Shown: positions 1,136 to 28,404, counted from the first letter of the stretch. The stretch: DNA of 38,548 nt from a virus (IMGVR_UViG_2563366976_000006), one strand, 5' to 3'. The notes: a model not told the origin generated them from the letters alone. Numbers and translations: made by a program.

Positions 1136-2812
1136 CTAAGCAACATGTAGTTCATCGTTGGCGGAAGTGGCTGCTTTGCGCTCCTGCTCAATAGCTAGAG
1201 ACTCTCTATATTCTTTCGCCTCTGCAAACATTGTCCAGTGGGCGTTGATGTTCATGTCTTCAATAACTGATTTGATTTCTTTTAAATTTACGTTAAAAAA
1301 CTCTTTTCGTGAGTTAATTTTATTGACCTGCTTTTCGTTGAAAACTTTATGCAGATGGTTTTCTAATGATGGTGCATCATCACTATAAATCATCGCATGA
1401 ACATCGAACGAAAAAGGAACACTAGCATCTCCGAGTTCACGAACACGATCAAGTGGTTCAAGGCGGCGTGTCATTCCAATTTTATATACATCTTCGCCAA
1501 ATGAACCAATATTACTAATGATATAGACGTGGCCTGATCTGGTTTGTTGAGCCATAGAAATAGCTCGTTGATTTTTAGCTTCTGCTTCTTCATATTTTAA
1601 CTGTAGTTCAGCTATTTTTTGCTCTAAAGCTAAGCGTTGTTCTTCATTTGCAAGCATAAGTTCTTTCGTTGCTTTATTTATAGCTTGCTGAATAGCTTTT
1701 TCTTCTTTTTCAGCTTCTTTTATCGCTTTTTCATATTCTCTACGAGCTCTTTCCTCTTCACGAAGCTGTTCTTTAATCCTTCTTTGCTCTTCTTTTTCTT
1801 CGAGCATAATTTCATTAACTGCTACACCCCATTTTAGCTCGTTGAGTCTTGCCTGAAGATAGATGTCACTTATTTTTGCGGACCTAAAGGCAGAGCCATT
1901 GTAATTTACTAGTTGAAATGCATCTTTTATTTCTTGGGAAAGTTTTCCAAAATTGTTGTGTTTGACTTTTGATAAAATACTGTCAACTCTTCCATTGAAG
2001 GCATCCAAAACAAAGTTTATGGAAGTATTACGCCTGTTTTGCTCAACATAATCACACGAAGCAGCTTTATTAGTTTTTATTAATGATTTGGTTAACTCTC
2101 TGGCTTTTTGTAATTCCTTGCCTGCATCTGTAAATTCATAATTTTCTGCCAGCTCATCAAGTACACTACGGTTAGGGATGATCCATTCATCACCATAACC
2201 TTCAATTTTATTTTTCATTGATTTTGCAACTGCTTCATATTTTTCTGCAAACTCTTTAGCTTCATATGCTGAACCAGCAATCTCCTTTGCTCTTTCTTCT
2301 GCATCAGAAATAATTTTTACTGCATTGTCATTAGCATTTGAGATTAGCTCATTTGCTTTATTATTAGCATTATCAAGACGTTCTTTGGCTTTCAGGCGTG
2401 CATCGCGAGCGTCTTTGGTGATTGCTATAGCTTCGCTATTAGCGTTGCTTATTGTCATCTGAGCTTGATAATTTGCTTCGTTTACTGTTTTAGCCGCCTT
2501 AATTTGGGCATCATCTATTTTTTGCTTGGCTATTGAGTCCGCATTTTTTATCTTATTCTCTGCATCCATTACTGCGCTGTGCAATTCTTCGTATTGCCAC
2601 AATGGTGCTGCTCGCCCTTCAAGCTCTGATAATTCTCGTACGGTCTGTGCTAGTTTTTCTTGATTTTCAATCAGTTGGTTAGAAAGGGCTATGTTGTTAG
2701 CTGTCAGGTTATCTATAGCCGCTTTGTGTTTTTTACTTTGTTTAAATAATATTACAGCTAGAACAGGGGCGAGAAATGCTAATAAGAGTATAACGATGGC
2801 AAATGAATTCAT
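1136..2812 (-). CDS. membrane-anchored coiled-coil protein with DUF4041-like middle and T5orf172/GIY-YIG-like C-terminal domain (moron)
   Basis: 558-aa ORF; N-terminal hydrophobic helix, long E/K/A-rich coiled coil, C-terminal segment VYIISNIGSFGEDVYKIGMT typical of T5orf172-type domains; AT-rich relative to neighbours; AAGGA SD upstream. Confidence 0.6.
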   Translation of the reverse strand: MNSFAIVILLLAFLAPVLAVILFKQSKKHKAAIDNLTANNIALSNQLIENQEKLAQTVRELSELEGRAAPLWQYEELHSAVMDAENKIKNADSIAKQKIDDAQIKAAKTVNEANYQAQMTISNANSEAIAITKDARDARLKAKERLDNANNKANELISNANDNAVKIISDAEERAKEIAGSAYEAKEFAEKYEAVAKSMKNKIEGYGDEWIIPNRSVLDELAENYEFTDAGKELQKARELTKSLIKTNKAASCDYVEQNRRNTSINFVLDAFNGRVDSILSKVKHNNFGKLSQEIKDAFQLVNYNGSAFRSAKISDIYLQARLNELKWGVAVNEIMLEEKEEQRRIKEQLREEERARREYEKAIKEAEKEEKAIQQAINKATKELMLANEEQRLALEQKIAELQLKYEEAEAKNQRAISMAQQTRSGHVYIISNIGSFGEDVYKIGMTRRLEPLDRVRELGDASVPFSFDVHAMIYSDDAPSLENHLHKVFNEKQVNKINSRKEFFNVNLKEIKSVIEDMNINAHWTMFAEAKEYRESLAIEQERKAATSANDELHVA

Positions 2813-5579: not shown

Positions 5580-6433
5580 GCACCATCCTGAAATGGGCGG
5601 GAAATAAAACCGCCATTATGCCAGAACTGAAAAAATACCTTCCTGCTGGCCCGCGACTGGTTGAACCTTTCGCGGGTTCCTGTGCTGTGATGATGGAAAC
5701 GGATTATCCCAGCTATCTGGTTGCGGATATTAATCCTGATTTAATCAACCTCTATAAAAAGGTTGCCGCTGATTGTGAATCGTTTATATCTCGCGCCAGA
5801 GTTTTATTTGAGATCGCAAACAGGGAGGTGGCTTATTACAACATAAGGCAGGAGTTTAACTGCTCAACTGAAATTACTGATTTCATGAAAGCGGTATATT
5901 TCCTGTATCTCAATCGTCACGGTTACCGTGGTTTATGTCGCTATAACAAGAGCGGGCATTTCAACATTCCCTACGGTAATTATAAAAATCCGTATTTCCC
6001 TGAAAAAGAACTTCGCACATTTGCAGAAAAAGCCCAGCGAGCAACGTTTATCTGCGCCAGCTTTGATGAAACGCTGGCGATGTTGAAGGCGGGAGATGTG
6101 GTGTATTGCGATCCGCCATATGACGGTACGTTTTCCGGCTATCACACTGATGGTTTCACTGAAGATGACCAGTATCACCTGGCATCCGTTCTTGAACATC
6201 GGTCATCAGAAGGACATCCGGTCATTGTTTCTAACAGTGACACATCCCTGATCCGTTCGCTGTATCGCAATTTTACTCACCACTATATCAAGGTAAAACG
6301 CAGCATCGGTGTGGCAGCTGGCGAGGGTAAATCAGCAACAGAAATCATTGCTGTTTCCGGGCCGCGCTGCTGGATGGGATTTGATTATTCGCGTGGCGTG
6401 GATAGTTCTGCCGTGTACGGAGTACGTGCATGA
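5576..6433 (+). CDS. dam: DNA adenine methyltransferase (Dam-like, N6-adenine)
   Basis: Starts [11 protein letters not shown]; FAGS motif and DPPY catalytic motif ([10 protein letters not shown]). Confidence 0.85.
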
Positions 6434-8844
6434 GTCATGCCGATATGAACAACTGCTGCGGCTTTAACGAGGCTGCCGCAGCATTCTCATGGAACAGCCC
6501 GAAAAAGGCCATTAACCCTTATCTGGACCCGGCGGAAGTTGCGCCGGTTTCTACGCTTTCAAACCTGATCACTCTGTACGCTGCCGATAACGAGCAGGAA
6601 CAGTTGCGCCGCGAGGCACTGAGTGATCAGGTCTGGGAGCGTTATTTCTTTAATGAATCACATGATCCTGTCCAGCGCGAAATGGAGCAGGATAAGCTCA
6701 TTAGCCGGGCAAAGCTGGCGCATGAGCAGCAGCGTTTTAATTCAGACATGGTCATTCTGGCGGACGTCAACGCCCAGCCTTCCCATATCAGCAAGCCGCT
6801 GATGCAACGTATTGAATACTTCAGCAGCCTGGGCAGGCCAAAGGCTTATTCCCGCTATTTACGTGAGACGATTAAGCCATGTCTGGAACGACTGGAGCAT
6901 GTACGCGACAGTCAGCTATCTGCATCTTTTCGCTTTATGGCAAGCCATGAAGGGCTGGACGGCCTGCTGATCCTGCCTGAAATGAGTCAGGATCAGGTGA
7001 AACGCCTGTCCACCCTGGTAGCTGCGCATATGAGTATGTGCCTTGATGCAGCTTGTGGTGATTTGTATGCCACCGATGACGTTAAGCCAGAAGAAATCCG
7101 CAAGACATGGGAAAAGGTGGCAGCGGAAACCCTGCGTCTGGATGTCATCCCACCTGCGTTTGAGCAACTCCGTCGGAAAAGAAACCGCCGTAAACCCGTG
7201 CCGTATGAACTCATTCCGGGTTCGCTGGCGCGTATGTTGTGCGCCGACTGGTGGTATCGGAAATTATGGAAGATGCGTTGCGAATGGCGGGAAGAGCAGT
7301 TGCGCGCTGTTTGCCTGGTCAGCAAAAAAGCATCTCCTTATGTCAGCTATGAAGCCGTGATGCATAAACGTGAGCAGCGCCGTAAGTCGCTGGAGTTTTT
7401 CCGTTCTCATGAACTGGTGAACGAAGACGGTGACACGCTGGACATGGAGGATGTGGTAAACGCCAGCAGCAGCAACCCTGCGCATCGCCGCAATGAGATG
7501 ATGGCCTGTGTTAAAGGTCTGGAGCTTATCGCGGAAATGCGCGGTGACTGCGCCGTTTTCTACACTATCACCTGTCCGTCGCGTTTCCATTCCACGCTAA
7601 ATAACGGCAGACCAAACCCGACCTGGACAAACGCGACGGTAAGACAAAGCAGCGATTATCTGGTCGGCATGTTTGCTGCATTTCGTAAGGCGATGCACAA
7701 AGCCGGGTTGCGCTGGTATGGCGTGCGGGTGGCTGAGCCGCATCATGATGGCACAGTTCACTGGCACCTGTTGTGTTTCATGCGCAAAAAAGACCGCCGT
7801 GCCATCACTGCATTACTGCGTAAGTTTGCCATCCGTGAAGACCGCGAGGAGCTGGGCAATAACACTGGGCCGCGCTTTAAGTCTGAGTTGATTAACCCGC
7901 GCAAAGGAACGCCGACAAGCTACATCGCGAAATATATCAGTAAGAACATTGACGGTCGTGGTCTGGCTGGCGAGATCAGCAAGGAAACGGGTAAATCTCT
8001 GCGTGATAACGCTGAATACGTGAATGCCTGGGCGTCTCTGCATCGTGTTCAGCAATTCCGCTTCTTTGGTATTCCGGGGCGTCAGGCTTACCGTGAACTT
8101 CGCTTGCTGGCTGGTCAGGCGGCAAGGCAACAGGGTGACAAAAAAGCAGGTGCGCCGGTACTGGATAACCCGCGTCTTGATGCCATTCTGGCTGCTGCTG
8201 ATGCTGGTTGTTTTGCCACCTACATCATGAAGCAGGGCGGCGTACTGGTTCCCCGTAAATATCACCTCATCAGAACCGCTTATGAAATCAACGAAGAGCC
8301 GACCGCCTATGGCGATCACGGCATTCGTATTTATGGCATCTGGTCACCCATTGCAGAGGGCAAGATCTGCACTCATGCAGTGAAGTGGAAAATGGTTCGT
8401 AAAGCCGTTGACGTTCAGGAGGCGGCAGCCGACCAGGGCGCTTGCGCCCCTTGGACTCGTGGCAATAACTGTCCCCTTGCTGAAAATTTGAACCAACAGG
8501 AGAAAGATAAATCAGCTGATGGGGACACCAGAACGGACATTACCCGCATGGATGACAAGGAGTTGCACGATTACCTGCACAGTATGAGCAAAAAAGATCG
8601 CCGGGAGCTGGCAGTAAGGTTGCGCCTGGTTAAACCGAAAAGGTGTAAAGACTACAAACAGCGAATTACAGATCATCAGCATCAGCAGCTCGTCTATGAA
8701 CTGAAGTCCAGAGGATTTGATGGCAGCGAGAAAGAAGTCGATTTGCTCCTTCGCGGTGGCAGTATTCCATCAGGAGCAGGCCTGCGTATCTTCTATCGGA
8801 ACCAGCGTCTGAAGGAAGATGATAAATGGCGGAACCTGTATTAA
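6430..8844 (+). CDS. A: replication initiation endonuclease (P2 gpA family)
   Basis: 804-aa ORF; HxH-type motif region (HWHLL) typical of rolling-circle initiators; position after the early genes. Confidence 0.85.
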
Positions 8845-8997: not shown

Positions 8998-9186
8998 ATG
9001 CAGGACTATTTTTTGGAGTCTTTGAAGCTCCAGCGCATTGATTTTTTTCTTAAGCTTGTAGCGGCTAGTGAGTGTAGTGATGAAGAGAAGGGGCTGGCCC
9101 TGCAGTGGGTTTCTGAACTGACAGATGAACTCATGGCAAAAATCAGAACCCACGAATACAACCGCTCAATGGATGTCATCAATTGA
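8998..9186 (+). CDS. Tum-like (antirepressor operon) small protein, N-terminal part
   Basis: 62-aa ORF with GGAGGA SD, downstream of the LexA box; different frame from the next ORF. Confidence 0.4.
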   Translation: MQDYFLESLKLQRIDFFLKLVAASECSDEEKGLALQWVSELTDELMAKIRTHEYNRSMDVIN

Positions 9187-9196
9187 GGTGACTTTT

Positions 9197-9430
9197 ATGC
9201 GCATTGAAATAATGATCGATAAAGAGCAGAAGATTAGCCAGTCTACCCTGGACGCCCTTGAATCCGAGCTTTACCGCAATCTGCGCCCCCTGTATCCCAA
9301 AACGGTAATTCGTATCCGCAAAGGTAGCTCTAACGGTGTGGAACTGACCGGACTGCAACTGGACGAAGAAAGAAAACGAGTGATGAAAATTATGCAGAAG
9401 GTGTGGGAAGACGACAGCTGGCTGCATTAA
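9197..9430 (+). CDS. DinI-family protein (Tum C-terminal-like)
   Basis: 77-aa ORF starting MRIEIMIDKE, DinI-like pattern; SOS-regulated position. Confidence 0.65.
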   Translation: MRIEIMIDKEQKISQSTLDALESELYRNLRPLYPKTVIRIRKGSSNGVELTGLQLDEERKRVMKIMQKVWEDDSWLH

Positions 9431-9590: not shown

Positions 9591-9640
9591 CGTAGATCAT
9601 GCAGGTGCATGAAAACCACTACATAAAGCGGGCAGGCGTG

Positions 9641-9659
9641 GCGGGGATACGAGCGCGCG
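9641..9659 (+). other. cos-like cohesive-end sequence (GGCGTGGCGGGGA...)
   Basis: First 13 nt match the 186 cohesive end as I recall it, 14/19 to P2; correct position (after early region, before Q) and orientation. Confidence 0.45.
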
Positions 9660-9675
9660 CTTGCCATCGAACTCT

Positions 9676-9858
9676 TTCTTTATTAGACTCAAAATGCTCT
9701 TTAGTGTAGGAACAATGGTTCCAGCCGGGTGATTAGCCAGGCTCTAATTTATTGTCCATAACAGGGTTGCGAAAGACACACACTCCTCCTTCGCATATCC
9801 TGCTTGGGCAGTCTATGCGAAGGAGGAGTGCATGTCTTTCGCTGTCTTTAGTAAAGGG
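9676..9858 (+). ncRNA. candidate retron msr-msd non-coding RNA (boundaries approximate)
   Basis: Immediately upstream of the retron RT; contains a 72-nt near-perfect hairpin and small msr-like hairpin (GGAAC AATG GTTCC); tentative a1/a2 pairing 9676-9687 with 9847-9858 needs G-U wobbles. Confidence 0.4.
9770..9841 (+). repeat. long inverted repeat / hairpin, candidate msd stem-loop
   Basis: 28-nt arms complementary at 26/28 positions, 16-nt loop containing an additional 4-bp stem. Confidence 0.6.
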
Positions 9859-9860
9859 CA

Positions 9861-10844
9861 ATGCTCGCTGCAATTGTTGCAGCGAGCATATCTGAGATGG
9901 ATATTATGCAGCTTGAAAAAAAATTATGTGAAAAATTCAACCTTACCCCTTTGAAGCTTTCTATCCTCTCATCCAAAGCTCCAAAAAAATATCGCGTATA
10001 TTATATACCCAAGAGAACTTCTGGTCTTAGGGCGATTGCTCAGCCGACTAAAGAGTTGAAGCAAATTCAACGTTTTTTGGTTTCGGAGTTGAAGCCTCTT
10101 TTGCCAATTCATTCATCAGCAATGGCTTACAGATGTGGCATAAGCATTAAGGATAATGCTGAACGTCACAAGAACAATCCATTTATATTAAAAATGGATT
10201 TTCAGAATTTTTTTAATAAAATTAAACCGGAAATTTTTTTTGATAAGTTCAAAAAAATGGATGTTCAACACAACGCCAGAGATGAAATACTTCTGCACAA
10301 TTTTTTGTTTTGGAAGCCAGGGCAAAAAAGAAGTATTACACATATATTGAGCGTAGGAGCACCGAGTTCTCCATTCATTAGTAATTTTGTCATGTTTGAT
10401 TTTGATTCAGCTATCAGTGAGTGGTGTGCTGATTTTGGTATTGTTTATACTCGTTATGCGGATGATATAACATTTTCAACCGCTAGAAAAAATATTTTAT
10501 TCAGTGTTCCTAAAATAGTTAAAAACATGCTTGCTGAGCACGCATCAGGTATTACCATTAATGAAGCCAAGACCATTTTTACATCTAAGGCTCACAATAG
10601 GCATGTTACAGGTGTAACTATTACTACTGATGGTGAATTATCTATAGGGCGAAAGAGAAAAAAATATCTTTTCTCTCTTGTTTTTAAATATAGCAATGGG
10701 AACTTGACAAGTGAAGAAATTTTATATGCTAAAGGACTGATGTCTTATTGCATGCATATTGAAAGAAATATAATAATAAGAATGAAAAATAAGTATGGTG
10801 CGGAAGTTATCAATAAATTTCTTAAGGAAGGTTGTGATGAATGA
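9861..10844 (+). CDS. retron-type reverse transcriptase
   Basis: 327-aa ORF; RVYYIPKRTSGLRAIAQPTKELK motif and YADD catalytic box; start may be 9861, 9897 or 9906. Confidence 0.85.
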   Translation: MLAAIVAASISEMDIMQLEKKLCEKFNLTPLKLSILSSKAPKKYRVYYIPKRTSGLRAIAQPTKELKQIQRFLVSELKPLLPIHSSAMAYRCGISIKDNAERHKNNPFILKMDFQNFFNKIKPEIFFDKFKKMDVQHNARDEILLHNFLFWKPGQKRSITHILSVGAPSSPFISNFVMFDFDSAISEWCADFGIVYTRYADDITFSTARKNILFSVPKIVKNMLAEHASGITINEAKTIFTSKAHNRHVTGVTITTDGELSIGRKRKKYLFSLVFKYSNGNLTSEEILYAKGLMSYCMHIERNIIIRMKNKYGAEVINKFLKEGCDE

Positions 10845-12450
10845 TTCTAAAAAAAGAGTGGATAATGTTTTTTCGGAGTTTATTGGTCTGATTAATGATG
10901 GCGTGCCTGAGGATAAATTAAAATATTCACCTGTATTGAATTTGCTAAATGAATCTTTAAATAAAGACAACTTATACCTTAAGAAAATATCAATTGTAGA
11001 CTTCAAAAGATTAAGGGATGTTATTGTAAATCTTGAAGATGATCTCACAGTTTTTGTTGCTGACAACGGCTATGGTAAAACAACTTTGCTTGATGCGATC
11101 GCAATTTCTTTAAGTTGGCTTCGTTCTAATATACAGAAAAAAGATAAACCTGGGTCGTATATAAGGGAAGTGGATATAAATAACTCAAAAGATGCCTTGT
11201 ATGCATCTATTGCTGCAACATTTAAAGTACAAGAGCTGAATACTAATGTTTTAATCACAAATGCAAAAGATGGTGTGTCTTTTAAACGCAGTAACGATTT
11301 ACAAGAAATTAAGCTGCTAGCAACAATGTACCGCTATGTTAATACGTTCTTAGATAATTCAAGTCTACCTGTGATGGCTTATTATTCAATTGTTAGGTCT
11401 GTCGTTGGTGGTGGTATTGATAATAGAAGAAGAAGCGGTAAGAATAAAGTTTCTTGGTCCAAATTTGATGTGTATGACGATTTCATGTTTGATAGAAATG
11501 ATTTTGGCGAATTTTTAAATTGGCTCATGTTTTTATCGAATAAATCCGCTCATGAGAATCCAGTGGTCACTGATAACCCAGAGTTACTCAGAAAGGAAAT
11601 AGAAAGTATCAATAACACAATTGAACAACTAAGTATTGTTTCTAACATCGATTTTAGTATTATTAATCAGCTAAAGAGTAGTCTTGAAGAGAAAAAAAAC
11701 CAATTAAATAAGTTTAGTAGTGAAGGGTTTTTAAGTTCATCTGTCTTATATAGGAATGTAATAAATGCTATATTGAGATTTTTGCCTGAATTCGAAAGCA
11801 TTAATCTGGTTTATAGTGAGACTGATGTTAAGCTTGTTCTTATCAAGAATGGTATTCAATTAGATGCGCAACAACTCTCACAAGGTGAGAAAACCATACT
11901 TACTCTGGTAGGTGATTTAGCTCGCCGACTTTCCCTTTTGAATCCAGAGCTACAAAATCCATTTGAAGGTCAAGGCATAGTATTAATTGATGAGGTTGAT
12001 TTGCACCTTCATCCAACTTGGCAGCAGAAAATTATAGAGCGGCTATTAACAACCTTTCCTAATGTTCAGTTTGTTCTTTCTACACACAGCCCTCAAGTCA
12101 TATCTACTGTTCCTGCCAGGAGCATAAGGATTTTAGAGGAGGTGGAAGATGAATTTGGTGATATTTCGATAAAAGCTGTTAGGCCCCGCTTTCAAACTAA
12201 AGGGGTGATGAATAGTGATGCATTACTTTATGGAATGGGAGCAGACCCTGCGCCTCCTGTAGAAGAAGTAAAATGGTTGGAAGAGTACAAAAAATTTATT
12301 GAATTGGATCAGTTTGATAGCGATTCAGCGCTTAAACTACGCCAGAATATAATAAGTCACTTTGGGGAAGATCATCCTTTAGTTGTAGAACTCGATCAGA
12401 TGACTTCACTCATGGAGTTTAAAAGAAAAATTAGAAATAAAAAACAATGA
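10837..12450 (+). CDS. retron effector ATPase (PtuA-like, ABC/AAA-type)
   Basis: Walker A DNGYGKTT, Walker B LIDEVDLHLH; start overlaps RT stop by 8 nt. Confidence 0.8.
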   Translation: MNDSKKRVDNVFSEFIGLINDGVPEDKLKYSPVLNLLNESLNKDNLYLKKISIVDFKRLRDVIVNLEDDLTVFVADNGYGKTTLLDAIAISLSWLRSNIQKKDKPGSYIREVDINNSKDALYASIAATFKVQELNTNVLITNAKDGVSFKRSNDLQEIKLLATMYRYVNTFLDNSSLPVMAYYSIVRSVVGGGIDNRRRSGKNKVSWSKFDVYDDFMFDRNDFGEFLNWLMFLSNKSAHENPVVTDNPELLRKEIESINNTIEQLSIVSNIDFSIINQLKSSLEEKKNQLNKFSSEGFLSSSVLYRNVINAILRFLPEFESINLVYSETDVKLVLIKNGIQLDAQQLSQGEKTILTLVGDLARRLSLLNPELQNPFEGQGIVLIDEVDLHLHPTWQQKIIERLLTTFPNVQFVLSTHSPQVISTVPARSIRILEEVEDEFGDISIKAVRPRFQTKGVMNSDALLYGMGADPAPPVEEVKWLEEYKKFIELDQFDSDSALKLRQNIISHFGEDHPLVVELDQMTSLMEFKRKIRNKKQ

Positions 12451-12462
12451 GGAGACTTGAGG

Positions 12463-13131
12463 ATGAAATTTCTTCGAAGGATATATCCTGGCCCTAACGT
12501 GCTAAGTAGTTATGATTTTAATACTCAAACTTGGGATGATGTATCATCATCTGACAAAAAAGATATTTGGGTAGATTTAGTTAAAATGCAAGGCAAAGTA
12601 TGCGCTTATTGTGAAAGGAAAATAAACCTAACAAAAGAGGGGGATAAGCATATTGAGCATTTCAAGCGAAAAGGTATTCATCGCGAATTAACGTTTAACT
12701 GGGAGAATCTGTTTGGTTCGTGTGGGGAAAAACAAAGATGCGGATTCTACAAAGACAAACAAGAATATAATGAGGGTGACCTGTTAAAAGCTGATGAAAT
12801 GGATCCTGAAGATTTTTTTGTTTTTATCTATAGTGGTGATGTTATTGTAAAACCTGAGATAAATGAACGAAATAAAGTAATAGCTGAGGTTACCCTGAGG
12901 GTATTCAATCTTAATCCCGAGAACGGTGGTGTTAAAGCCGAGAGAAGAAATGTCCTCGAGAAAGGCTTAGGCACTATAAAGGGGTATGTTAAGATTGCTC
13001 AAGACTTAATTGATAGTGGTGAGGATGCAGAAGAAGTTCGGCAATATGTTCGGGATGAGTATTATGAAAAAATTTCACAAATGGATTTTAAAACTGCAAG
13101 GAAACATGTTTTTGAAGCATTTCTACCTTGA
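12463..13131 (+). CDS. retron effector HNH endonuclease (PtuB-like)
   Basis: CAYCERK...HIEHF...C-x-x-C pattern; GGAG SD; 12 nt after ATPase stop. Confidence 0.75.
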   Translation: MKFLRRIYPGPNVLSSYDFNTQTWDDVSSSDKKDIWVDLVKMQGKVCAYCERKINLTKEGDKHIEHFKRKGIHRELTFNWENLFGSCGEKQRCGFYKDKQEYNEGDLLKADEMDPEDFFVFIYSGDVIVKPEINERNKVIAEVTLRVFNLNPENGGVKAERRNVLEKGLGTIKGYVKIAQDLIDSGEDAEEVRQYVRDEYYEKISQMDFKTARKHVFEAFLP

Positions 13132-13133
13132 AT

Positions 13134-13155
13134 AAAGGAGGGGAGACCCTCCTTT
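13134..13155. terminator. bidirectional hairpin terminator (AAAGGAGGG gaga CCCTCCTTT)
   Basis: Perfect 9-bp stem between convergent HNH and Q genes, T-run after it. Confidence 0.6.
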
Positions 13156-13158
13156 TGT

Positions 13159-14187
13159 TTAGATTATGTACTCATCAAAATTAATTATGTCTGATCCAAG
13201 CCAATCATTGAGATCGAGTATTTTCCTTTGCAATGGTTTTAATTCATTAGTGACGAAAACCTTACTAGCCTTCTCCACATCCCCAAACCCCCCGACATTA
13301 TTAGGCATTATCCCCATCATTTGTGGCGGCACACGATGCGCCGCCATCATGTCGTCCCGGCTCACGTTCTTGATATTCAGGAACTCATCCTTCGCCGCCA
13401 CTTCTGACAACGGGATAATCTGAAGCCCGTCCTTTTTACCGTTAGGCGAGTACATAAACAGGTTACGGAAGTTACCAGGACCTTTGGCGCTTTTCATCGC
13501 ATTGCGGAGGTTGTTCACATCCTCCTGGTTCTGCGCAGCATCGGTCATGTACATGATGAAGCCTGCATGACTGCCGTTAATGTAATACTTGCGGCGGAAC
13601 AGCGTGGCGGACTCGTTGAGCAGAGCTGACGGAATGGCAGAAAGATAACCGGGCAGGCCGTAGATCTCCTGGTTGATGTCCGGTTCTATCAGATGAAAAA
13701 TGCTGCCTTTCGTGAACTGATACGGCTGGGTTGTCATACCGTATTGCACAAACCAGTAGGTATCCAGGTCTAACCCGCGTCGGGTGTATTTTGCCAGAGC
13801 AGGCTCAAGGGCTATAACTTCACCGAAGCGGTTCGTGCGTTTCTCCAGGTAGGCGTTACCAAATACCAGATAGTCCTGCACAAAACGTGAAAAAGCCTGC
13901 TGGCTGAGCAGCGGGTGAGGGATGTAGGTACTGGTCAGAATGTTGCATTTCACCGCAATTGGTGAGCTGTGATGCACGGCGGCGCGGAAGGTTCGTGCCA
14001 GTCCGTCAAAGCTGACGGGCGGCTCATACCAGCGATCCATCTGTACGCATTCCACATAGTCCAGCAGTTCACGGCGGTCCAGAACAGGAACGGGATCGCC
14101 AAAGCTGAATGCTTCGGCTGAAGTCTGGCTTTTATGCTTGAGCTGATTCGTCGCCGCAGCGCGGTTTTTCTTACTCTTTCCCATCAA
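13159..14187 (-). CDS. Q: portal protein (P2 gpQ family)
   Basis: 342-aa ORF, first of the leftward Q-P operon; size and position match P2 Q. Confidence 0.85.
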   Translation of the reverse strand: MMGKSKKNRAAATNQLKHKSQTSAEAFSFGDPVPVLDRRELLDYVECVQMDRWYEPPVSFDGLARTFRAAVHHSSPIAVKCNILTSTYIPHPLLSQQAFSRFVQDYLVFGNAYLEKRTNRFGEVIALEPALAKYTRRGLDLDTYWFVQYGMTTQPYQFTKGSIFHLIEPDINQEIYGLPGYLSAIPSALLNESATLFRRKYYINGSHAGFIMYMTDAAQNQEDVNNLRNAMKSAKGPGNFRNLFMYSPNGKKDGLQIIPLSEVAAKDEFLNIKNVSRDDMMAAHRVPPQMMGIMPNNVGGFGDVEKASKVFVTNELKPLQRKILDLNDWLGSDIINFDEYII

Positions 14188-21528: not shown

Positions 21529-22224
21529 TCATGTCAAATATTGATAACTTTTATCAATTTCAAGTTTGTGAAATTTGGTTATCTTTGAATCAATGTATAA
21601 ATCTATGAACATTGCTATCCCTATCATAAATATAAATAGAATGCTTAAATAAATAATGGGGGTGGCAATCATAATTGTAAATTTGTTCTTGTCTGTCGTT
21701 TTTGCTAACTCTTCTTTCTTTTCAGGAATTAGCAAGTAGCTACAAATGAAATCTTTTGTGGCTTGTTGGATTGAAGTGATCTTATCAAGCTGTGACTTGT
21801 CAACACATACATCTGGTGTGATATTCCATTCAGGTGTGTATGGTATGTTTTGTGCGTGTTCTGGTTTCATCCAAAAGGAATCTTTTGTTTCTCTATGTGT
21901 GATTTCAACCCAATTTACGGGTTCTTTGGCGATGAAATAGGTAAATTTATAAAAACAAAGTGCTGAGGTCATAATGACTGCAATTCCAAATGAGACGATA
22001 AATATTTTATGTTTTTTAATATGGGGTTTTGTGCTTAACTTATATTTGCAAAGACTAAGTCTAATAATTGGCTTTGATATTCCAATCTTTGATATCAAAA
22101 AGTCTTCTTCTGGATAGGATGTGTTTAACCATGACCAAAAAGCCGAGATGCCACCTATAAGCCATTTAAATATAAGACCACCAATGGCCGTAGCTAAAAA
22201 TGTATTTATTTTATCGATTTCCAT
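21529..22224 (-). CDS. AT-rich moron: predicted 3-TM membrane protein of unknown function, antisense to late operon
   Basis: 231-aa ORF on opposite strand between S and V; strongly AT-rich DNA; hydrophobic helices at N-terminus, middle and C-terminus. Confidence 0.6.
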   Translation of the reverse strand: MEIDKINTFLATAIGGLIFKWLIGGISAFWSWLNTSYPEEDFLISKIGISKPIIRLSLCKYKLSTKPHIKKHKIFIVSFGIAVIMTSALCFYKFTYFIAKEPVNWVEITHRETKDSFWMKPEHAQNIPYTPEWNITPDVCVDKSQLDKITSIQQATKDFICSYLLIPEKKEELAKTTDKNKFTIMIATPIIYLSILFIFMIGIAMFIDLYIDSKITKFHKLEIDKSYQYLT

Positions 22225-22324: not shown

Positions 22325-22902
22325 ATGAACGCACAATTAACCGAAATCATGCGCCTTATCACCAACCTGATCCGCACTGGTGTAGTCACCGAAGTGGACC
22401 GGGAAAACTGGCTTTGCCGGGTGAAAACGGGCGACCTTGAAACCAACTGGATTAACTGGCTGACGCTGCGCGCGGGTAATGCCGCACATGGTGGAAACCA
22501 TCGGAAGGTGAGCAGGTGGTGCTGCTGAGTCTGGGAGGCAATCTGGAAACCGCCTTTGCGTTGCCCGCTGTCTATTCGAATCAGTTCGCGCCACCTTCGA
22601 CGTCGGCGGACGCCTGCGTGACAGAACATCCTGACGGTGGCTGGTTTGAATACGAACCCGCCACCGGGCGCTGGTATGTCAGGGGCATCAAATCCATGGT
22701 CATTGAGGCTGCCGACAACATCACCCTGAAAACCAGTGAGTTTGTGCTGGAGGCTGACCGCACGCGTATTAACAGCGAAGTAGTGATCAATGGTGGTGTT
22801 ACCCAGGGCGGCGGTGCAATGAGTTCTAACGGAATTGTGGTTGATGCACATCAGCATACTGGCGTCCTGAAAGGCGGCGACACAACCGGAGGCCCGGTAT
22901 GA
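22325..22902 (+). pseudogene. V: baseplate spike gene (P2 gpV family) interrupted by a frameshift near 22480-22490
   Basis: N-terminal 52 codons in one frame (22325 onward) and the rest in another (ending 22902); the two ORFs together cover a normal-length V. Confidence 0.65.
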
Positions 22903-26295: not shown

Positions 26296-26898
26296 ATGGA
26301 ACAGGCTATTTTGGGAAAAGACGGTTACGCTTTAAATGATGGGGAAATCATCGTACATAACTATGATGGCGAAACGCGGGAATATATTTCTACATCAACT
26401 GAATATCTCGCTGTCGGCGTCGGTATCCCGGCATGTTCCTGTCTGGATGCGCCAGGTGCACATAAGGCTGGTTATGCAATTTGCCGTTCTGTAGAATTAA
26501 ATTCATGGGAATATGTGCCAGATCATCGCGGCGAAACTGTTTATAGCACGGAAAATGGCCGGAAAGTAACCATTTCAGATATTGGCGAATATCCCGAAAA
26601 TACAACCACTATCGCCCCATTAACGCCATATGATAAATGGGATGGTGAGAAATGGGTGACCGATACTGAGGCACAGCATAGCGCCGCAGTAGACGCGGCA
26701 GAAGCACAGCGTCAGTCACTGATTGATGCTGCAATGGCTTCCATCAGTCTGATTCAGCTGAAATTACAGGCCGGACGGAAGTTGATGCAGGCAGAAACAA
26801 CCCGGCTTAACGCTGTGCTGGATTACATTGACGCGGTGACGGCAACAAATACCAGCACAGCGCCGGATGTCATCTGGCCTGAACTGCCGGAGGCGTAG
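26296..26898 (+). CDS. G: tail fibre assembly protein (P2 gpG family), active orientation
   Basis: 200-aa ORF directly after H. Confidence 0.8.
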   Translation: MEQAILGKDGYALNDGEIIVHNYDGETREYISTSTEYLAVGVGIPACSCLDAPGAHKAGYAICRSVELNSWEYVPDHRGETVYSTENGRKVTISDIGEYPENTTTIAPLTPYDKWDGEKWVTDTEAQHSAAVDAAEAQRQSLIDAAMASISLIQLKLQAGRKLMQAETTRLNAVLDYIDAVTATNTSTAPDVIWPELPEA

Positions 26899-27313
26899 GC
26901 CATTCAATATCTGGCGCACCGGAAATATCGACCAGTTCCAGTGCGTCCAGATAATCCAGCCACGAATTATATTGCGCCAGTTCCTCGCCTTTCAGACGAC
27001 CAATAGCAGCTTTGCCAGGCCACTGATGGGTATTGATGTAGGTATTGACTTCTGAAACCAAAGATATTTTTTTCATTTCAGCCGTCAACACCTCATCCTC
27101 TTTTGAAGGGGGGGGGGAATTAATCCATACTGGCCGTCCTGAACTATCAGCGCCAATTTCTTTCCCTTCTGGATGCAGACCAAGAAATTGCTCATATGTT
27201 TCTCTGGTAATTTCAATAACATCATCAGGAAGCGTTCCCGCATCCTCATATTCTGGAAACAATTCTTGCAGATAAAAACTTTTACTTCCGGGTGAAAAGA
27301 ATACTGAGTTCAT
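26870..27313 (-). CDS. alternative tail fibre assembly protein (silent orientation)
   Basis: 147-aa ORF convergent with G, C-terminus similar to G C-terminus (DYLDA...WPE/WPTPP). Confidence 0.7.
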   Translation of the reverse strand: MNSVFFSPGSKSFYLQELFPEYEDAGTLPDDVIEITRETYEQFLGLHPEGKEIGADSSGRPVWINSPPPSKEDEVLTAEMKKISLVSEVNTYINTHQWPGKAAIGRLKGEELAQYNSWLDYLDALELVDISGAPDIEWPTPPAVQAR

Positions 27314-27315
27314 TA

Positions 27316-27810
27316 TTACCGTCCAATGATTAACGCTGAGACGCTGGTATCTGAAGGAAAGGCTGCATTCAGTGGTTTGTCGACTTTGAACACAATCGTA
27401 TTATTCCCCCTGACAGCGGCAAAAGAACAAACCGCAGTCGCGTATGAACCTGTAATATTACTGGATACACCACCATAAGCTGTTGTTGATACCAGAGGGA
27501 TAACGCCCAGTACCTTATTAGGAAATACAAAGGGCAATGTGGCTGTGGCAATATAAGACTTATTAGAACCTGTGATGGCATAAGCATTATCAGTCATTCC
27601 ATTCATCGCCACTGGGCCGCTTATACTTACAGTAACCATCTGTATGATTAGCCCGTCAGGTTGACGAATCACAAAATTTCCATTGCCACCAGTAACCGTC
27701 CAGAAAGACATATCAGGGATTTGGTTTTCCCCGTTGCCCACATTCCGTTTTGCCGCTTCTCCCAAACCAACGTTTAAGAAAATGCAGCGATTACGGCTAA
27801 CTGGCATCAT
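27316..27810 (-). CDS. alternative tail fibre C-terminal cassette (silent orientation; fused to H after inversion)
   Basis: Shares the GLGE junction codons with H at the crossover site; no independent promoter or SD expected. Confidence 0.6.
   Translation of the reverse strand: MMPVSRNRCIFLNVGLGEAAKRNVGNGENQIPDMSFWTVTGGNGNFVIRQPDGLIIQMVTVSISGPVAMNGMTDNAYAITGSNKSYIATATLPFVFPNKVLGVIPLVSTTAYGGVSSNITGSYATAVCSFAAVRGNNTIVFKVDKPLNAAFPSDTSVSALIIGR
27757..27782. repeat. inversion crossover site (right)
   Basis: ttctcccaaacc aa cgtttaagaaaa, inverted relative to 25784-25809. Confidence 0.5.
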
Positions 27811-27831
27811 CCCCTATTTTTATTCAGGGAG

Positions 27832-28404
27832 ATGATCATGCTTATTGGCTATGTACGCGTGTCAACAAATGACCAGAACACCGATTTGCAACGTAATGCG
27901 CTGAACTGCGCGGGATGTGAGCGGATTTTTGAGGACAAAATCAGTGGCACTAAGTCCGACAGACCGGGGCTTAAAAAACTGCTCAGGACACTATTGGCAG
28001 GAGACACGCTGGTTGTCTGGAAGCTGGACAGGTTGGGGCGCAGTATGCGGCATCTTGTTACGCTGATAGAAGAGTTGCGCCAGCGTGGTGTGAATTTCCG
28101 AAGCCTGACTGACAGTATTGATACCAGTACCCCAATGGGCCGTTTCTTTTTTCATGTCATGGGTGCCCTGGCTGAAATGGAACGCGAACTGATAGTTGAA
28201 CGTACCCGGGCAGGGCTGGCTGCAGCTCGTGCTAAAGGCAGAGTAGGTGGACGCCGTCCTAAGTTGACCACTGAACAGTGGGCACAGATTGGACGTTTAC
28301 TCGAGGCCGGAGAATCAAGACAGCGTATTGCACTGATTTTTGATGTAGGCGTTTCTACCATTTATAGAAAATTTCCGGCAAATAAGAGCAATGAATCCCC
28401 CTGA
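27832..28404 (+). CDS. serine DNA invertase (Gin/Pin/Hin/Cin family)
   Basis: MLIGYVRVSTNDQNTDLQ N-terminus with catalytic serine; C-terminal HTH; adjacent to inverted repeats. Confidence 0.9.
   Translation: MIMLIGYVRVSTNDQNTDLQRNALNCAGCERIFEDKISGTKSDRPGLKKLLRTLLAGDTLVVWKLDRLGRSMRHLVTLIEELRQRGVNFRSLTDSIDTSTPMGRFFFHVMGALAEMERELIVERTRAGLAAARAKGRVGGRRPKLTTEQWAQIGRLLEAGESRQRIALIFDVGVSTIYRKFPANKSNESP

What the first reader, a model, noticed from the sequence alone, without database searches (positions are those of the whole stretch)
9641..13155. Type I-A retron (RT + PtuA-like ATPase + PtuB-like HNH) inserted between the cos-like site and portal gene Q
Three co-directional, tightly coupled, AT-rich genes sit where P2 has only about 130 bp between cos and Q. 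The RT (YADD box, retron-style IPK..G.R.I..P motif), the Walker A/B ATPase and the HNH nuclease match the architecture of retrons with Septu-like effectors, an anti-phage system. The RT stop overlaps the ATPase start by 8 nt and a perfect bidirectional hairpin closes the cassette. Its position next to the packaging site means it travels with the phage as cargo.
Basis: partly seen in the sequence, partly recalled or inferred. Interest (0 to 1): 0.8.

Follow-up and report, generated by a model that had tools for sequence, protein, structure and literature searches.

The report
Type I-A retron in prophage hotspot
This is an intact anti-phage retron (reverse transcriptase, its small RNA, a PtuA ATPase and a PtuB nuclease) carried as cargo next to the packaging site of a 186/P2-type E. 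coli prophage; it is an uncharacterised relative of systems that are already well studied, so it is ordinary.

Summary
Window 9635-13158 holds a cos site, a promoter-like site, a retron msr-msd RNA gene (about 9697-9859), a retron RT (9906-10844), a PtuA-type ATPase (10837-12450, with an 8-nt overlap) and a PtuB-type HNH nuclease (12463-13131). A hairpin (13134-13155) is shared with the convergent portal gene.

PADLOC gives RT_I-A 1.5e-131, PtuA 2.7e-188 and PtuB 8e-116. The RNA structure is backed by covariation: 25 pairs change on both sides across 11 variants.

The closest studied system is the E. coli FORC82 type I-A retron (PDB 9N69). Identity is RT 61%, ATPase 55% and HNH 53%. It sits in the same cos-portal slot. 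So do a third E. coli variant and all 12 related viral contigs.

This slot is the published P2-family defence hotspot (Rousset 2022; Dodd and Egan 1996 for Ec67/Ec86). The exact proteins occur on about 130 public contigs and are already annotated as retron RT and PtuB.

Corrections:
- The RT starts at 9906, not 9861.
- PtuB starts at 12463.
- The prophage is 186-like.
- The P2 cos-Q gap is 167 bp.

Likely mechanism, by homology: the msDNA holds PtuAB inactive. A phage nuclease degrades the msDNA. The freed HNH then cuts a tRNA. The tRNA target is unknown. This is a new member of a known kind, and interest is low.

The parts
9635..9653 (+). cos cohesive-end sequence of the 186-like prophage. 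It marks the left boundary of the cargo slot and is not part of the retron.
   Evidence: GGCGTGGCGGGGATACGAG matches the phage 186 cos at 15 of 19 positions. The identical 19-mer sits at the same place in E. coli FORC82. A cos-like motif lies upstream of the RT in 11 of 12 related viral contigs.
9661..9689 (+). Sigma-70-like promoter (TTGCCA, 17 nt spacer, TAGACT) placed to start the ncRNA at about 9696-9697.
   Evidence: Consensus scan, 9 of 12 matches. On its own this is no better than chance, since shuffles give as many sites. The position is conserved in FORC82 (TTGCCT ... TAAAAT, read). Assignment as the promoter is an inference.
9697..9859 (+). Retron ncRNA (msr-msd). It comprises the 5' arm of the terminal stem (9697-9703), the predicted priming G (9704), msr hairpins (9709-9722 and 9723-9743), the long msd stem-loop (9769-9842) and the 3' arm of the terminal stem (9852-9858). 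The predicted msDNA is a hairpin of roughly 90 nt.
   Evidence: Rfam msr RF00170 scores 47.0 bits (E 2.3e-6) at 9696-9760. STnc400 RF02058, which is the St85 msd region, scores 54.6 bits (E 7.9e-9) at 9762-9898. Both are below their gathering scores. The region is 85% identical to the FORC82 ncRNA region. The MFE is -78 kcal/mol with z = -8.4. Covariation on 11 variants: 91.6% of cells paired against about 40% in slid controls, and 25 pairs changed on both sides. The msd strand folded as DNA gives -37.8 kcal/mol with z = -12.3. G9704 is assigned by homology to G8 of the FORC82 ncRNA.
9861..9889 (+). 13-bp hairpin between the ncRNA and the RT start. It may be an attenuator or a processing or stability element. 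In this variant it lacks the U-run seen in most relatives.
   Evidence: Folding gives -22.6 kcal/mol, z = -3.7. A hairpin of different sequence occupies the same position in FORC82, AREA_497, the Ec78-family locus and the viral-contig variants, and also in the Rfam STnc400 model. Its function is inferred.
9906..10844 (+). Retron reverse transcriptase, 312 aa (MQLEKK...). The RefSeq model that starts at 9861 (327 aa) probably over-extends into the hairpin.
   Evidence: PADLOC RT_I-A 1.5e-131. Pfam RVT_1 4e-30. NCBIfam retron_St85_RT 316 bits against a cut-off of 235. 61% identical to the FORC82 RT (9N69 chain E), aligned from residue 1. The 312-aa form is found on 72 public contigs and the 327-aa form on 21.
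10837..12450 (+). PtuA-type SMC/ABC-family ATPase, 537 aa. Its start overlaps the RT stop by 8 nt.
   Evidence: PADLOC PtuA 2.7e-188 and ATPase_I-A 5.8e-160. Pfam AAA_21, AAA_15 and SMC_N. NCBIfam PtuA 477 bits, just below the equivalog cut-off of 500. 55% identical to the FORC82 ATPase. Walker B D385 aligns with FORC82 D387.
12463..13131 (+). PtuB-type HNH nuclease, 222 aa, preceded by a GAGGAG Shine-Dalgarno sequence.
   Evidence: PADLOC PtuB 8.2e-116 and HNH_I-A 1.4e-58. NCBIfam PtuB 155 bits against a cut-off of 150, and TIGR02646. 53% identical to the FORC82 HNH. H66 aligns with the catalytic H71 of FORC82.
13134..13155 (.). Perfect 9-bp hairpin shared by the retron operon (+) and the convergent portal operon (-). 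It is a likely bidirectional terminator.
   Evidence: The terminator scan finds it on the + strand. Sequence was read. It occupies the position of tW in 186 and tQ in P2 but has a different sequence.

Best explanation
This is an intact type I-A retron, an abortive-infection anti-phage system carried as cargo in the cos-proximal hotspot of a 186-like (P2-family) E. coli prophage.

Shown here: the locus holds a promoter-like site, a structured msr-msd RNA gene, a retron RT, a PtuA ATPase and a PtuB HNH nuclease in one tightly coupled operon, with all catalytic motifs intact.

Inferred by homology to the FORC82 retron (53-61% identity) and to Retron-Eco7/Ec78:
1. The RT primes from the 2'-OH of G9704.
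2. It copies the msd region into a hairpin msDNA of about 90 nt.
3. This msDNA 'harpoon', together with the RT and the remaining RNA, scaffolds four PtuA subunits. These hold PtuB in an inactive complex.
4. An infecting phage's flap or 5'-3' exonuclease (T3/T7 gp6-type, T5 D15-type) degrades the msDNA.
5. PtuA-PtuB is released, and the HNH cleaves a specific host tRNA. The target is tRNA-Ser for FORC82 and tRNA-Tyr for Ec78. It is unknown for this variant.
6. Translation stops, and the infected lysogen is sacrificed before phage progeny form.
For: Family assignment comes from PADLOC, Pfam and NCBIfam. The closest solved structures are type I-A retron complexes: 9N69 (FORC82), several Ec78 entries and Ec83. 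Identity to FORC82 is 61%, 55% and 53% over the full lengths. Catalytic residues are conserved. ncRNA evidence: Rfam msr and STnc400 hits, 85% DNA identity to the FORC82 ncRNA, and covariation with 25 pairs changed on both sides and 91.6% of cells paired against about 40% in slid controls. The same cos-ncRNA-RT-PtuA-PtuB-portal layout is seen in FORC82, 98208 and AREA_497 and in 12 of 12 related IMG/VR viral contigs. The mechanism of the relatives is taken from PMC12475279, PMC12673091 and the abstracts listed. The hotspot is described in PMC9122126. Dodd and Egan 1996 is cited in PMC6868368. The exact proteins are present, unbroken, on about 130 public contigs.
Against: No experiment exists on this variant; a literature search by accession found nothing. 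Both Rfam RNA hits fall below their gathering scores. The ATPase scores just under the NCBIfam PtuA equivalog cut-off, 477 against 500. At 53% HNH identity, the tRNA target and the trigger range cannot be transferred. FORC82 and Ec78 already differ in target and in sensitivity to T5 counter-defences. The promoter call is no better than chance on its own.
Confidence: 0.9

Rival explanations
1. It is a type II-A1 (St85/Sen2-like) retron, because RefSeq names the RT 'retron St85 family' and the msd region matches the Salmonella STnc400 model.
For: NCBIfam retron_St85_RT scores 316 bits. PADLOC RT_II-A gives 3.9e-110 as the second-best model. Rfam STnc400 scores 54.6 bits.
Against: RT_I-A scores higher (436 bits against 366). 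Only 46 nt and no ORF lie between the msd and the RT, whereas II-A1 retrons place their effector gene there. The downstream genes are PtuA and PtuB. Mestre et al. state that types I-A and II-A1 share one RT clade and one ncRNA family and differ only in the effector module. That explains the St85 labels.
Confidence: 0.03
2. It is a stand-alone Septu (PtuAB) system that merely sits beside an unrelated or decayed reverse transcriptase, with no functional coupling through msDNA.
For: PtuA and PtuB models of stand-alone Septu also match, at weaker scores. PDB 8EE4 and 8EE7 Septu match at 4.8e-42 and 1.7e-9.
Against: The RT stop and the ATPase start overlap by 8 nt. The ncRNA is intact and covaries. 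The RT motifs are intact. The best matches for all three proteins are the chains of a single solved retron complex. The three genes and the RNA travel together in every related locus examined.
Confidence: 0.03
3. The cassette is a silent passenger in a decaying prophage and is no longer expressed or functional.
For: The prophage baseplate V gene is split into 22325-22528 and 22516-22902 and is flagged as frameshifted in RefSeq. The FORC82 and AREA_497 copies sit in truncated prophage remnants.
Against: All three ORFs and all catalytic motifs are intact. The FORC82 copy, which lies in a more degraded prophage, is experimentally active. Identical proteins are kept on about 130 contigs. Loss of the RT or msDNA alone should be toxic, which selects for keeping the whole system.
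Confidence: 0.04

Closest known systems
E. coli FORC82 type I-A retron (George et al. 2025, Nat Commun; PDB 9N69/9N6B/9N6C)
   Same: It has the same gene order and the same ncRNA family (85% DNA identity over msr and the msd flanks). It sits in the same cos-to-portal slot of a 186-like prophage. The catalytic residues correspond: RT YADD, ATPase D387 = D385 here, HNH H71 = H66 here.
   Different: Protein identity is only 61% (RT), 55% (ATPase) and 53% (HNH). The middle of the msd stem differs by compensatory changes. The hairpin after the ncRNA lacks a U-run here. Here a hairpin closes the operon, whereas none is evident by eye in FORC82. The tRNA target and trigger range have not been tested for this variant.
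Retron-Eco7 (Ec78) and Retron-Eco4 (Ec83), the classical type I-A retrons
   Same: They share the RT-PtuA-PtuB architecture, the RT clade and the conserved msr. Activation of Ec78 by the T5 D15 nuclease and its cleavage of tRNA-Tyr are published.
   Different: Identity to an Ec78-family locus (ECONIH5) is 45% (RT), 34% (PtuA) and 35% (PtuB). That locus has a shorter msd stem and lies near fimA and IS3, not in a P2-family prophage.
Retrons Ec67 and Ec86 in 186-related prophages (Dodd and Egan 1996)
   Same: Going by the title of that paper, the retron replaces the DNA between cos and the terminator that follows the portal operon of a 186-related prophage.
   Different: They are other retron types with other effectors. 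RT similarity is only 69-89 bits.
P2-family cos-proximal defence hotspot (Rousset et al. 2022)
   Same: The cargo lies between replication gene A and the portal gene, next to cos. Retrons are listed among the systems found there.
   Different: P2's own cargo genes, old and tin, are placed by Rousset et al. in this same gpA-to-gpQ locus. From memory of the P2 map, and not checked here, they lie on the A side of cos, whereas this retron lies on the portal side.
Retron-Sen2 (St85), type II-A1
   Same: It shares the RT clade and the ncRNA family.
   Different: Its effector is a different protein, encoded between the msd and the RT. Here the effectors are PtuA and PtuB, downstream of the RT.

Membership tests
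Type I-A retron (Mestre 2020) | Retron-clade reverse transcriptase with YADD, NAxxH and VTG motifs | tested here: met
   PADLOC RT_I-A 1.5e-131 is the best model. NCBIfam retron_St85_RT scores 316 bits against a cut-off of 235. The motifs are present. The top PDB hits are type I-A retron RTs.
Type I-A retron (Mestre 2020) | msr-msd ncRNA gene directly upstream of the RT, with a terminal inverted repeat, a priming G and an msd stem-loop (RNA family IA1/IIA1) | tested here: met
   Rfam msr scores 47 bits and STnc400 54.6 bits, both significant but below gathering. 85% identity to the experimentally delimited FORC82 ncRNA region. Covariation on 11 variants gives 25 pairs changed on both sides and 91.6% of cells paired against about 40% in slid controls. 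Folding z-score is -8.4.
Type I-A retron (Mestre 2020) | PtuA-type ABC/SMC ATPase encoded downstream of the RT | tested here: met
   PADLOC PtuA 2.7e-188 and ATPase_I-A 5.8e-160. 55% identical to the FORC82 ATPase. Walker A and B, the signature motif and the H-loop are present. Caveat: the NCBIfam PtuA equivalog scores 477, below its cut-off of 500.
Type I-A retron (Mestre 2020) | PtuB-type HNH nuclease encoded after the ATPase | tested here: met
   PADLOC PtuB 8.2e-116 and HNH_I-A 1.4e-58. NCBIfam PtuB scores 155 bits against a cut-off of 150. The catalytic His is conserved.
Type I-A retron (Mestre 2020) | Production of msDNA | not testable with these tools
   There is only a prediction: a DNA hairpin of about 89 nt, -37.8 kcal/mol. 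FORC82 makes an msDNA of about 90 nt.
Type I-A retron (Mestre 2020) | Anti-phage activity that depends on the RT, ATPase and HNH | not testable with these tools
   This has been shown for FORC82 and Ec78 only.
Type II-A1 retron (St85/Sen2) | A non-PtuAB effector gene placed between the msd and the RT | tested here: not met
   Only 46 nt, holding a hairpin, lie between the msd end (9859) and the RT start (9906). The effectors are PtuA and PtuB.
Group II intron or DGR reverse transcriptase | RT that matches the group II intron maturase or DGR models | tested here: not met
   NCBIfam group_II_RT_mat scores 56.8 bits against a cut-off of 300. The PDB group II RT matches only at 5.7e-7, against 4e-122 for a retron RT. 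DGR RT models were not searched explicitly.
P2-family cos-proximal defence hotspot cargo (Rousset 2022) | Variable, compositionally foreign genes between replication gene A and the portal gene, adjacent to cos | tested here: met
   Gene A is 6430-8844, cos 9635-9653 and the portal gene 13159-14187. GC is 0.30-0.39 against 0.53-0.61 in the flanks. Different type I-A variants occupy the same slot in other prophages and viral contigs.

The most novel reading that the evidence does not exclude
The cos-portal slot of 186/P2-type phages may carry an allelic series of type I-A retrons. At least 7 variants were seen here. They share a near-invariant msr and msd base but have hypervariable msd stems and effectors (34-66% identity). 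This variant, whose HNH is only 53% identical to the nearest studied one, may therefore cleave a tRNA other than Ser or Tyr, or respond to a different set of phage nucleases. A related point is that the conserved hairpin between the ncRNA and the RT could be an attenuator that sets the RNA:protein ratio. In this variant it has lost its U-run.
Probability: 0.3. Interest if true: 0.35.

Novelty: new member of a known kind. Interest (0 to 1): 0.15.

Why it matters
It adds one more natural variant to a system whose structure and mechanism were solved in 2025. Its practical value is as a comparison point. Three or more diverged type I-A retrons occupy the same prophage slot. They share an almost identical msr but differ in msd stems and effectors. 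Swapping these parts could map which residues set tRNA target choice (Ser or Tyr) and trigger range. It also shows that this prophage carries at least two defence genes, the retron and a PD-Lambda-1/SNIPE-type gene. Nothing here opens a new question.

Tried and rejected
- A megablast of the cassette against 50,697 GenBank phage records found nothing. tblastn found only distant RTs, at most 46% identical. Isolated phages in that collection therefore do not carry this variant; related IMG/VR viral contigs do.
- A literature search by protein accession found no paper on this variant.
- The small predicted helix 9755-9757/9764-9766 is not supported by covariation, with 63.6% of cells paired, and was dropped.
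- In the first 5-sequence alignment, the post-ncRNA hairpin scored only 44% paired because the copies are not alignable. Folding each copy on its own showed that all of them form a hairpin.
[quoted passage not shown] The result was ambiguous, because type I-A msDNAs are processed. The length is therefore given only as about 90 nt, by analogy with FORC82.
- The promoter scan is not enriched over shuffles. The promoter is called only because its position is conserved.
- A regular-expression search for the msr 5' end in the viral contigs returned nothing, for a reason I did not work out. The MAFFT alignment then showed the motif in every sequence.
- I did not run structure prediction or the large protein searches, because sequence matches to solved complexes were already decisive.
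Full report
**What is there**

The window is an E. coli prophage of the 186/P2 family, integrated between rcdA and ybjL. It is 100% identical to two complete E. coli genomes, strains N10 and 23CRST038.

The gene order is: integrase, CI, CII, Fil, Dam methylase, replication gene A (6430-8844), a small ORF, DinI (9185-9430), then cos. After cos comes the region in question, then the portal gene (13159-14187, minus strand) and the terminase gene.

The cos sequence GGCGTGGCGGGGATACGAG lies at 9635-9653. It matches the phage 186 cos at 15 of 19 positions and is identical to the sequence at the same place in E. coli FORC82. In 186 and P2 the distance from the end of cos to the portal stop codon is 176 and 167 bp, with a terminator in between. 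Here it is 3,505 bp. The inserted DNA has 30-39% GC, against 53-61% in the flanks.

**The observation**

- The three ORFs are co-directional.
- The RT stop and the ATPase start overlap by 8 nt, ATGAATGA.
- The ATPase stop is followed by GAGGAG and then the PtuB ATG at 12463.
- A perfect 9-bp hairpin at 13134-13155 lies 2 nt after the PtuB stop and 3 nt before the portal stop on the other strand.
- The sequence motifs are intact: YADD, NAERH and VTG in the RT; ADNGYGKT, LIDE, LSQGE and THSP in the ATPase; CAYC, HIEH and NWEN in the HNH.

**Identity of the proteins**

PADLOC gives RT_I-A at 1.5e-131 as the best RT model. The ATPase matches PtuA at 2.7e-188 and ATPase_I-A at 5.8e-160. The HNH matches PtuB at 8.2e-116 and HNH_I-A at 1.4e-58.

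NCBIfam places the RT in retron_St85_RT, at 316 bits against a cut-off of 235. The HNH just clears the PtuB cut-off (155 against 150). The ATPase falls just short of the PtuA equivalog cut-off (477 against 500), which is why RefSeq calls it only 'AAA family ATPase'. The group II intron RT model scores 57 bits against a cut-off of 300. DGR RT models were not searched explicitly.

All three proteins find their best solved relatives in a single complex, PDB 9N69. This is the E. coli FORC82 type I-A retron of George et al. 2025. Identity to it is 61% for the RT, 55% for the ATPase and 53% for the HNH, over the full lengths. Identity to an Ec78-family locus is 45%, 34% and 35%.

The alignment to FORC82 starts at MQLEKK (9906). 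The 312-aa form of the RT is also the commoner one in public data. I therefore place the RT start at 9906. The 9861 start used by RefSeq runs through an RNA hairpin.

**The RNA gene**

Rfam finds the retron msr family at 9696-9760 (47 bits, E 2.3e-6). It finds STnc400, the msd region of the Salmonella St85 retron, at 9762-9898 (54.6 bits, E 7.9e-9). Both hits are below their gathering scores.

The region 9697-9859 folds into the canonical retron shape (-78 kcal/mol, z = -8.4):
- a 7-bp terminal stem (9697-9703 with 9852-9858);
- an unpaired G at 9704, which aligns with the priming G8 of the FORC82 ncRNA;
- two msr hairpins;
- a long msd stem (9769-9842).

The DNA copy of the msd would be a hairpin with about 33 base pairs. 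That matches the msDNA 'harpoon' seen in the FORC82 structure.

I aligned this region with ten other type I-A variants: FORC82, AREA_497, an Ec78-family locus and seven viral-contig loci. On that alignment, 91.6% of cells form standard pairs, against 37-46% when the partners are slid. 25 of 55 pairs show changes on both sides, and no shuffle out of 500 reaches the observed covariation score. An earlier alignment of 5 sequences gave the same picture.

The msr and the base of the msd stem are almost invariant. The middle of the msd stem is hypervariable in both sequence and length.

A promoter-like site, TTGCCA-17-TAGACT, at 9661-9689 is positioned to start transcription at about 9696. Its position is conserved in FORC82. 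The scan itself is not better than chance.

**Context and how common it is**

The FORC82 retron sits in exactly the same slot, between cos and the portal gene of a 186-like prophage remnant. So does a third variant in strains AREA_497 and M37H. All 12 IMG/VR viral contigs that encode a relative of this RT also encode PtuA, PtuB and a portal relative in that order downstream. A cos-like motif lies upstream in 11 of the 12. PtuA identity to the window ranges from 41 to 66%. An Ec78-family locus, by contrast, is not in a P2-type prophage.

Rousset et al. 2022 described the region between gpA and gpQ, next to cos, as a hotspot of defence systems in P2-like phages, with retrons among them. Dodd and Egan 1996 reported, per their title, that retrons Ec67 and Ec86 replace the DNA between cos and a terminator of a 186-related prophage (cited). 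Mestre et al. 2020 defined type I-A and noted that it shares its RT clade and ncRNA family with type II-A1 (St85). That explains the St85 labels seen here.

This exact cassette is rare. It occurs in 2 of 5,426 complete E. coli genomes. The proteins are nevertheless on about 130 public contigs and are already annotated as retron RT and PtuB. No paper mentions them by accession.

**How it most likely works**

Shown here: an intact operon with a structured ncRNA, a retron RT and PtuAB, with the catalytic residues conserved.

Inferred from FORC82 and Ec78:
1. The RT makes an msDNA of about 90 nt.
2. This msDNA, together with the RT and the remaining RNA, scaffolds four PtuA subunits that hold PtuB inactive.
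3. A phage flap or exonuclease (T3/T7 type, or T5 D15) degrades the msDNA.
4. PtuAB is released, and the HNH cuts a specific tRNA.
5. Translation stops and the infection aborts.

The target is tRNA-Ser in FORC82 and tRNA-Tyr in Ec78. The two systems also differ in sensitivity to T5 counter-measures. Target and trigger range therefore cannot be assigned to this variant from sequence.

**Rivals**

- A type II-A1 retron is excluded by gene content.
- A stand-alone Septu system next to an unrelated RT is excluded by the gene overlap, the intact ncRNA and the co-inheritance of all parts.
- A silent passenger in a decaying prophage is possible for the prophage itself, since its V gene is split. It is unlikely for the retron, which is intact. 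Its FORC82 relative is active despite lying in a more degraded prophage.

**Verdict**

It is, however, an ordinary member of a well-characterised family in a well-known location. Interest is low. The only open points are the tRNA target and trigger of this diverged variant, and the role of the hairpin between the ncRNA and the RT.

Noticed in passing
window 1136-2812 (-): A 558-aa AT-rich gene (GC about 0.35) lies between the integrase and the CI repressor. It matches PADLOC PD-Lambda-1 (2.3e-120) and Pfam T5orf172/MUG113 plus DUF4041. RefSeq names it 'SNIPE associated domain-containing protein'. This is a second defence gene in a second cargo slot of the same prophage.
   Followed up: partly
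window 21529-22224 (-): A 231-aa gene with GC 0.33 matches DUF6216 (Pfam 2e-11) and has no PADLOC hit. It lies antisense between the virion-morphogenesis gene and baseplate gene V. In the FORC82 prophage remnant a TIR-domain gene sits beside V (L001 11301-12101). This junction may be another cargo slot.
   Followed up: partly
window 22325-22902 (+): Baseplate assembly gene V is split into two overlapping ORFs, 22325-22528 and 22516-22902. RefSeq flags it as frameshifted. The prophage may be defective, or this may be a sequencing error.
   Followed up: no
window 26296-28404: A serine invertase (27832-28404; Resolvase plus HTH_7, 1e-52) sits next to opposed tail-fibre assembly genes, 26296-26898 (+) and 26870-27313 (-), and a tail-fibre C-terminal fragment, 27316-27810 (-). 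This looks like an invertible host-range segment.
   Followed up: no
window 9861-9889; L001 6219-6252; L006 5175-5192; L007 5152-5173: A hairpin between the end of the ncRNA and the RT start is conserved in position but not in sequence across type I-A variants. It is also part of the Rfam STnc400 model. In most variants it is followed by a U-run, like a terminator. In this window it is followed by AUAUCUGAG. It could be an attenuator that sets the ncRNA:RT ratio.
   Followed up: partly
window 9861-9905: The RefSeq RT model WP_235835336.1 (327 aa) starts at 9861, inside the RNA hairpin. The 312-aa form that starts at 9906 aligns from residue 1 with the FORC82 RT and is the commoner form in public data. 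The RefSeq start is probably over-extended.
   Followed up: yes
window 9690-9860 versus 9906-13131: Between this variant and FORC82, the ncRNA with its promoter is 85% identical in DNA, while the three genes are only about 73-76% identical in DNA (53-61% in protein). The 3' end of the portal gene also diverges between this window, FORC82 and 186. The exchange boundary of the cargo therefore seems to reach into the portal gene.
   Followed up: partly
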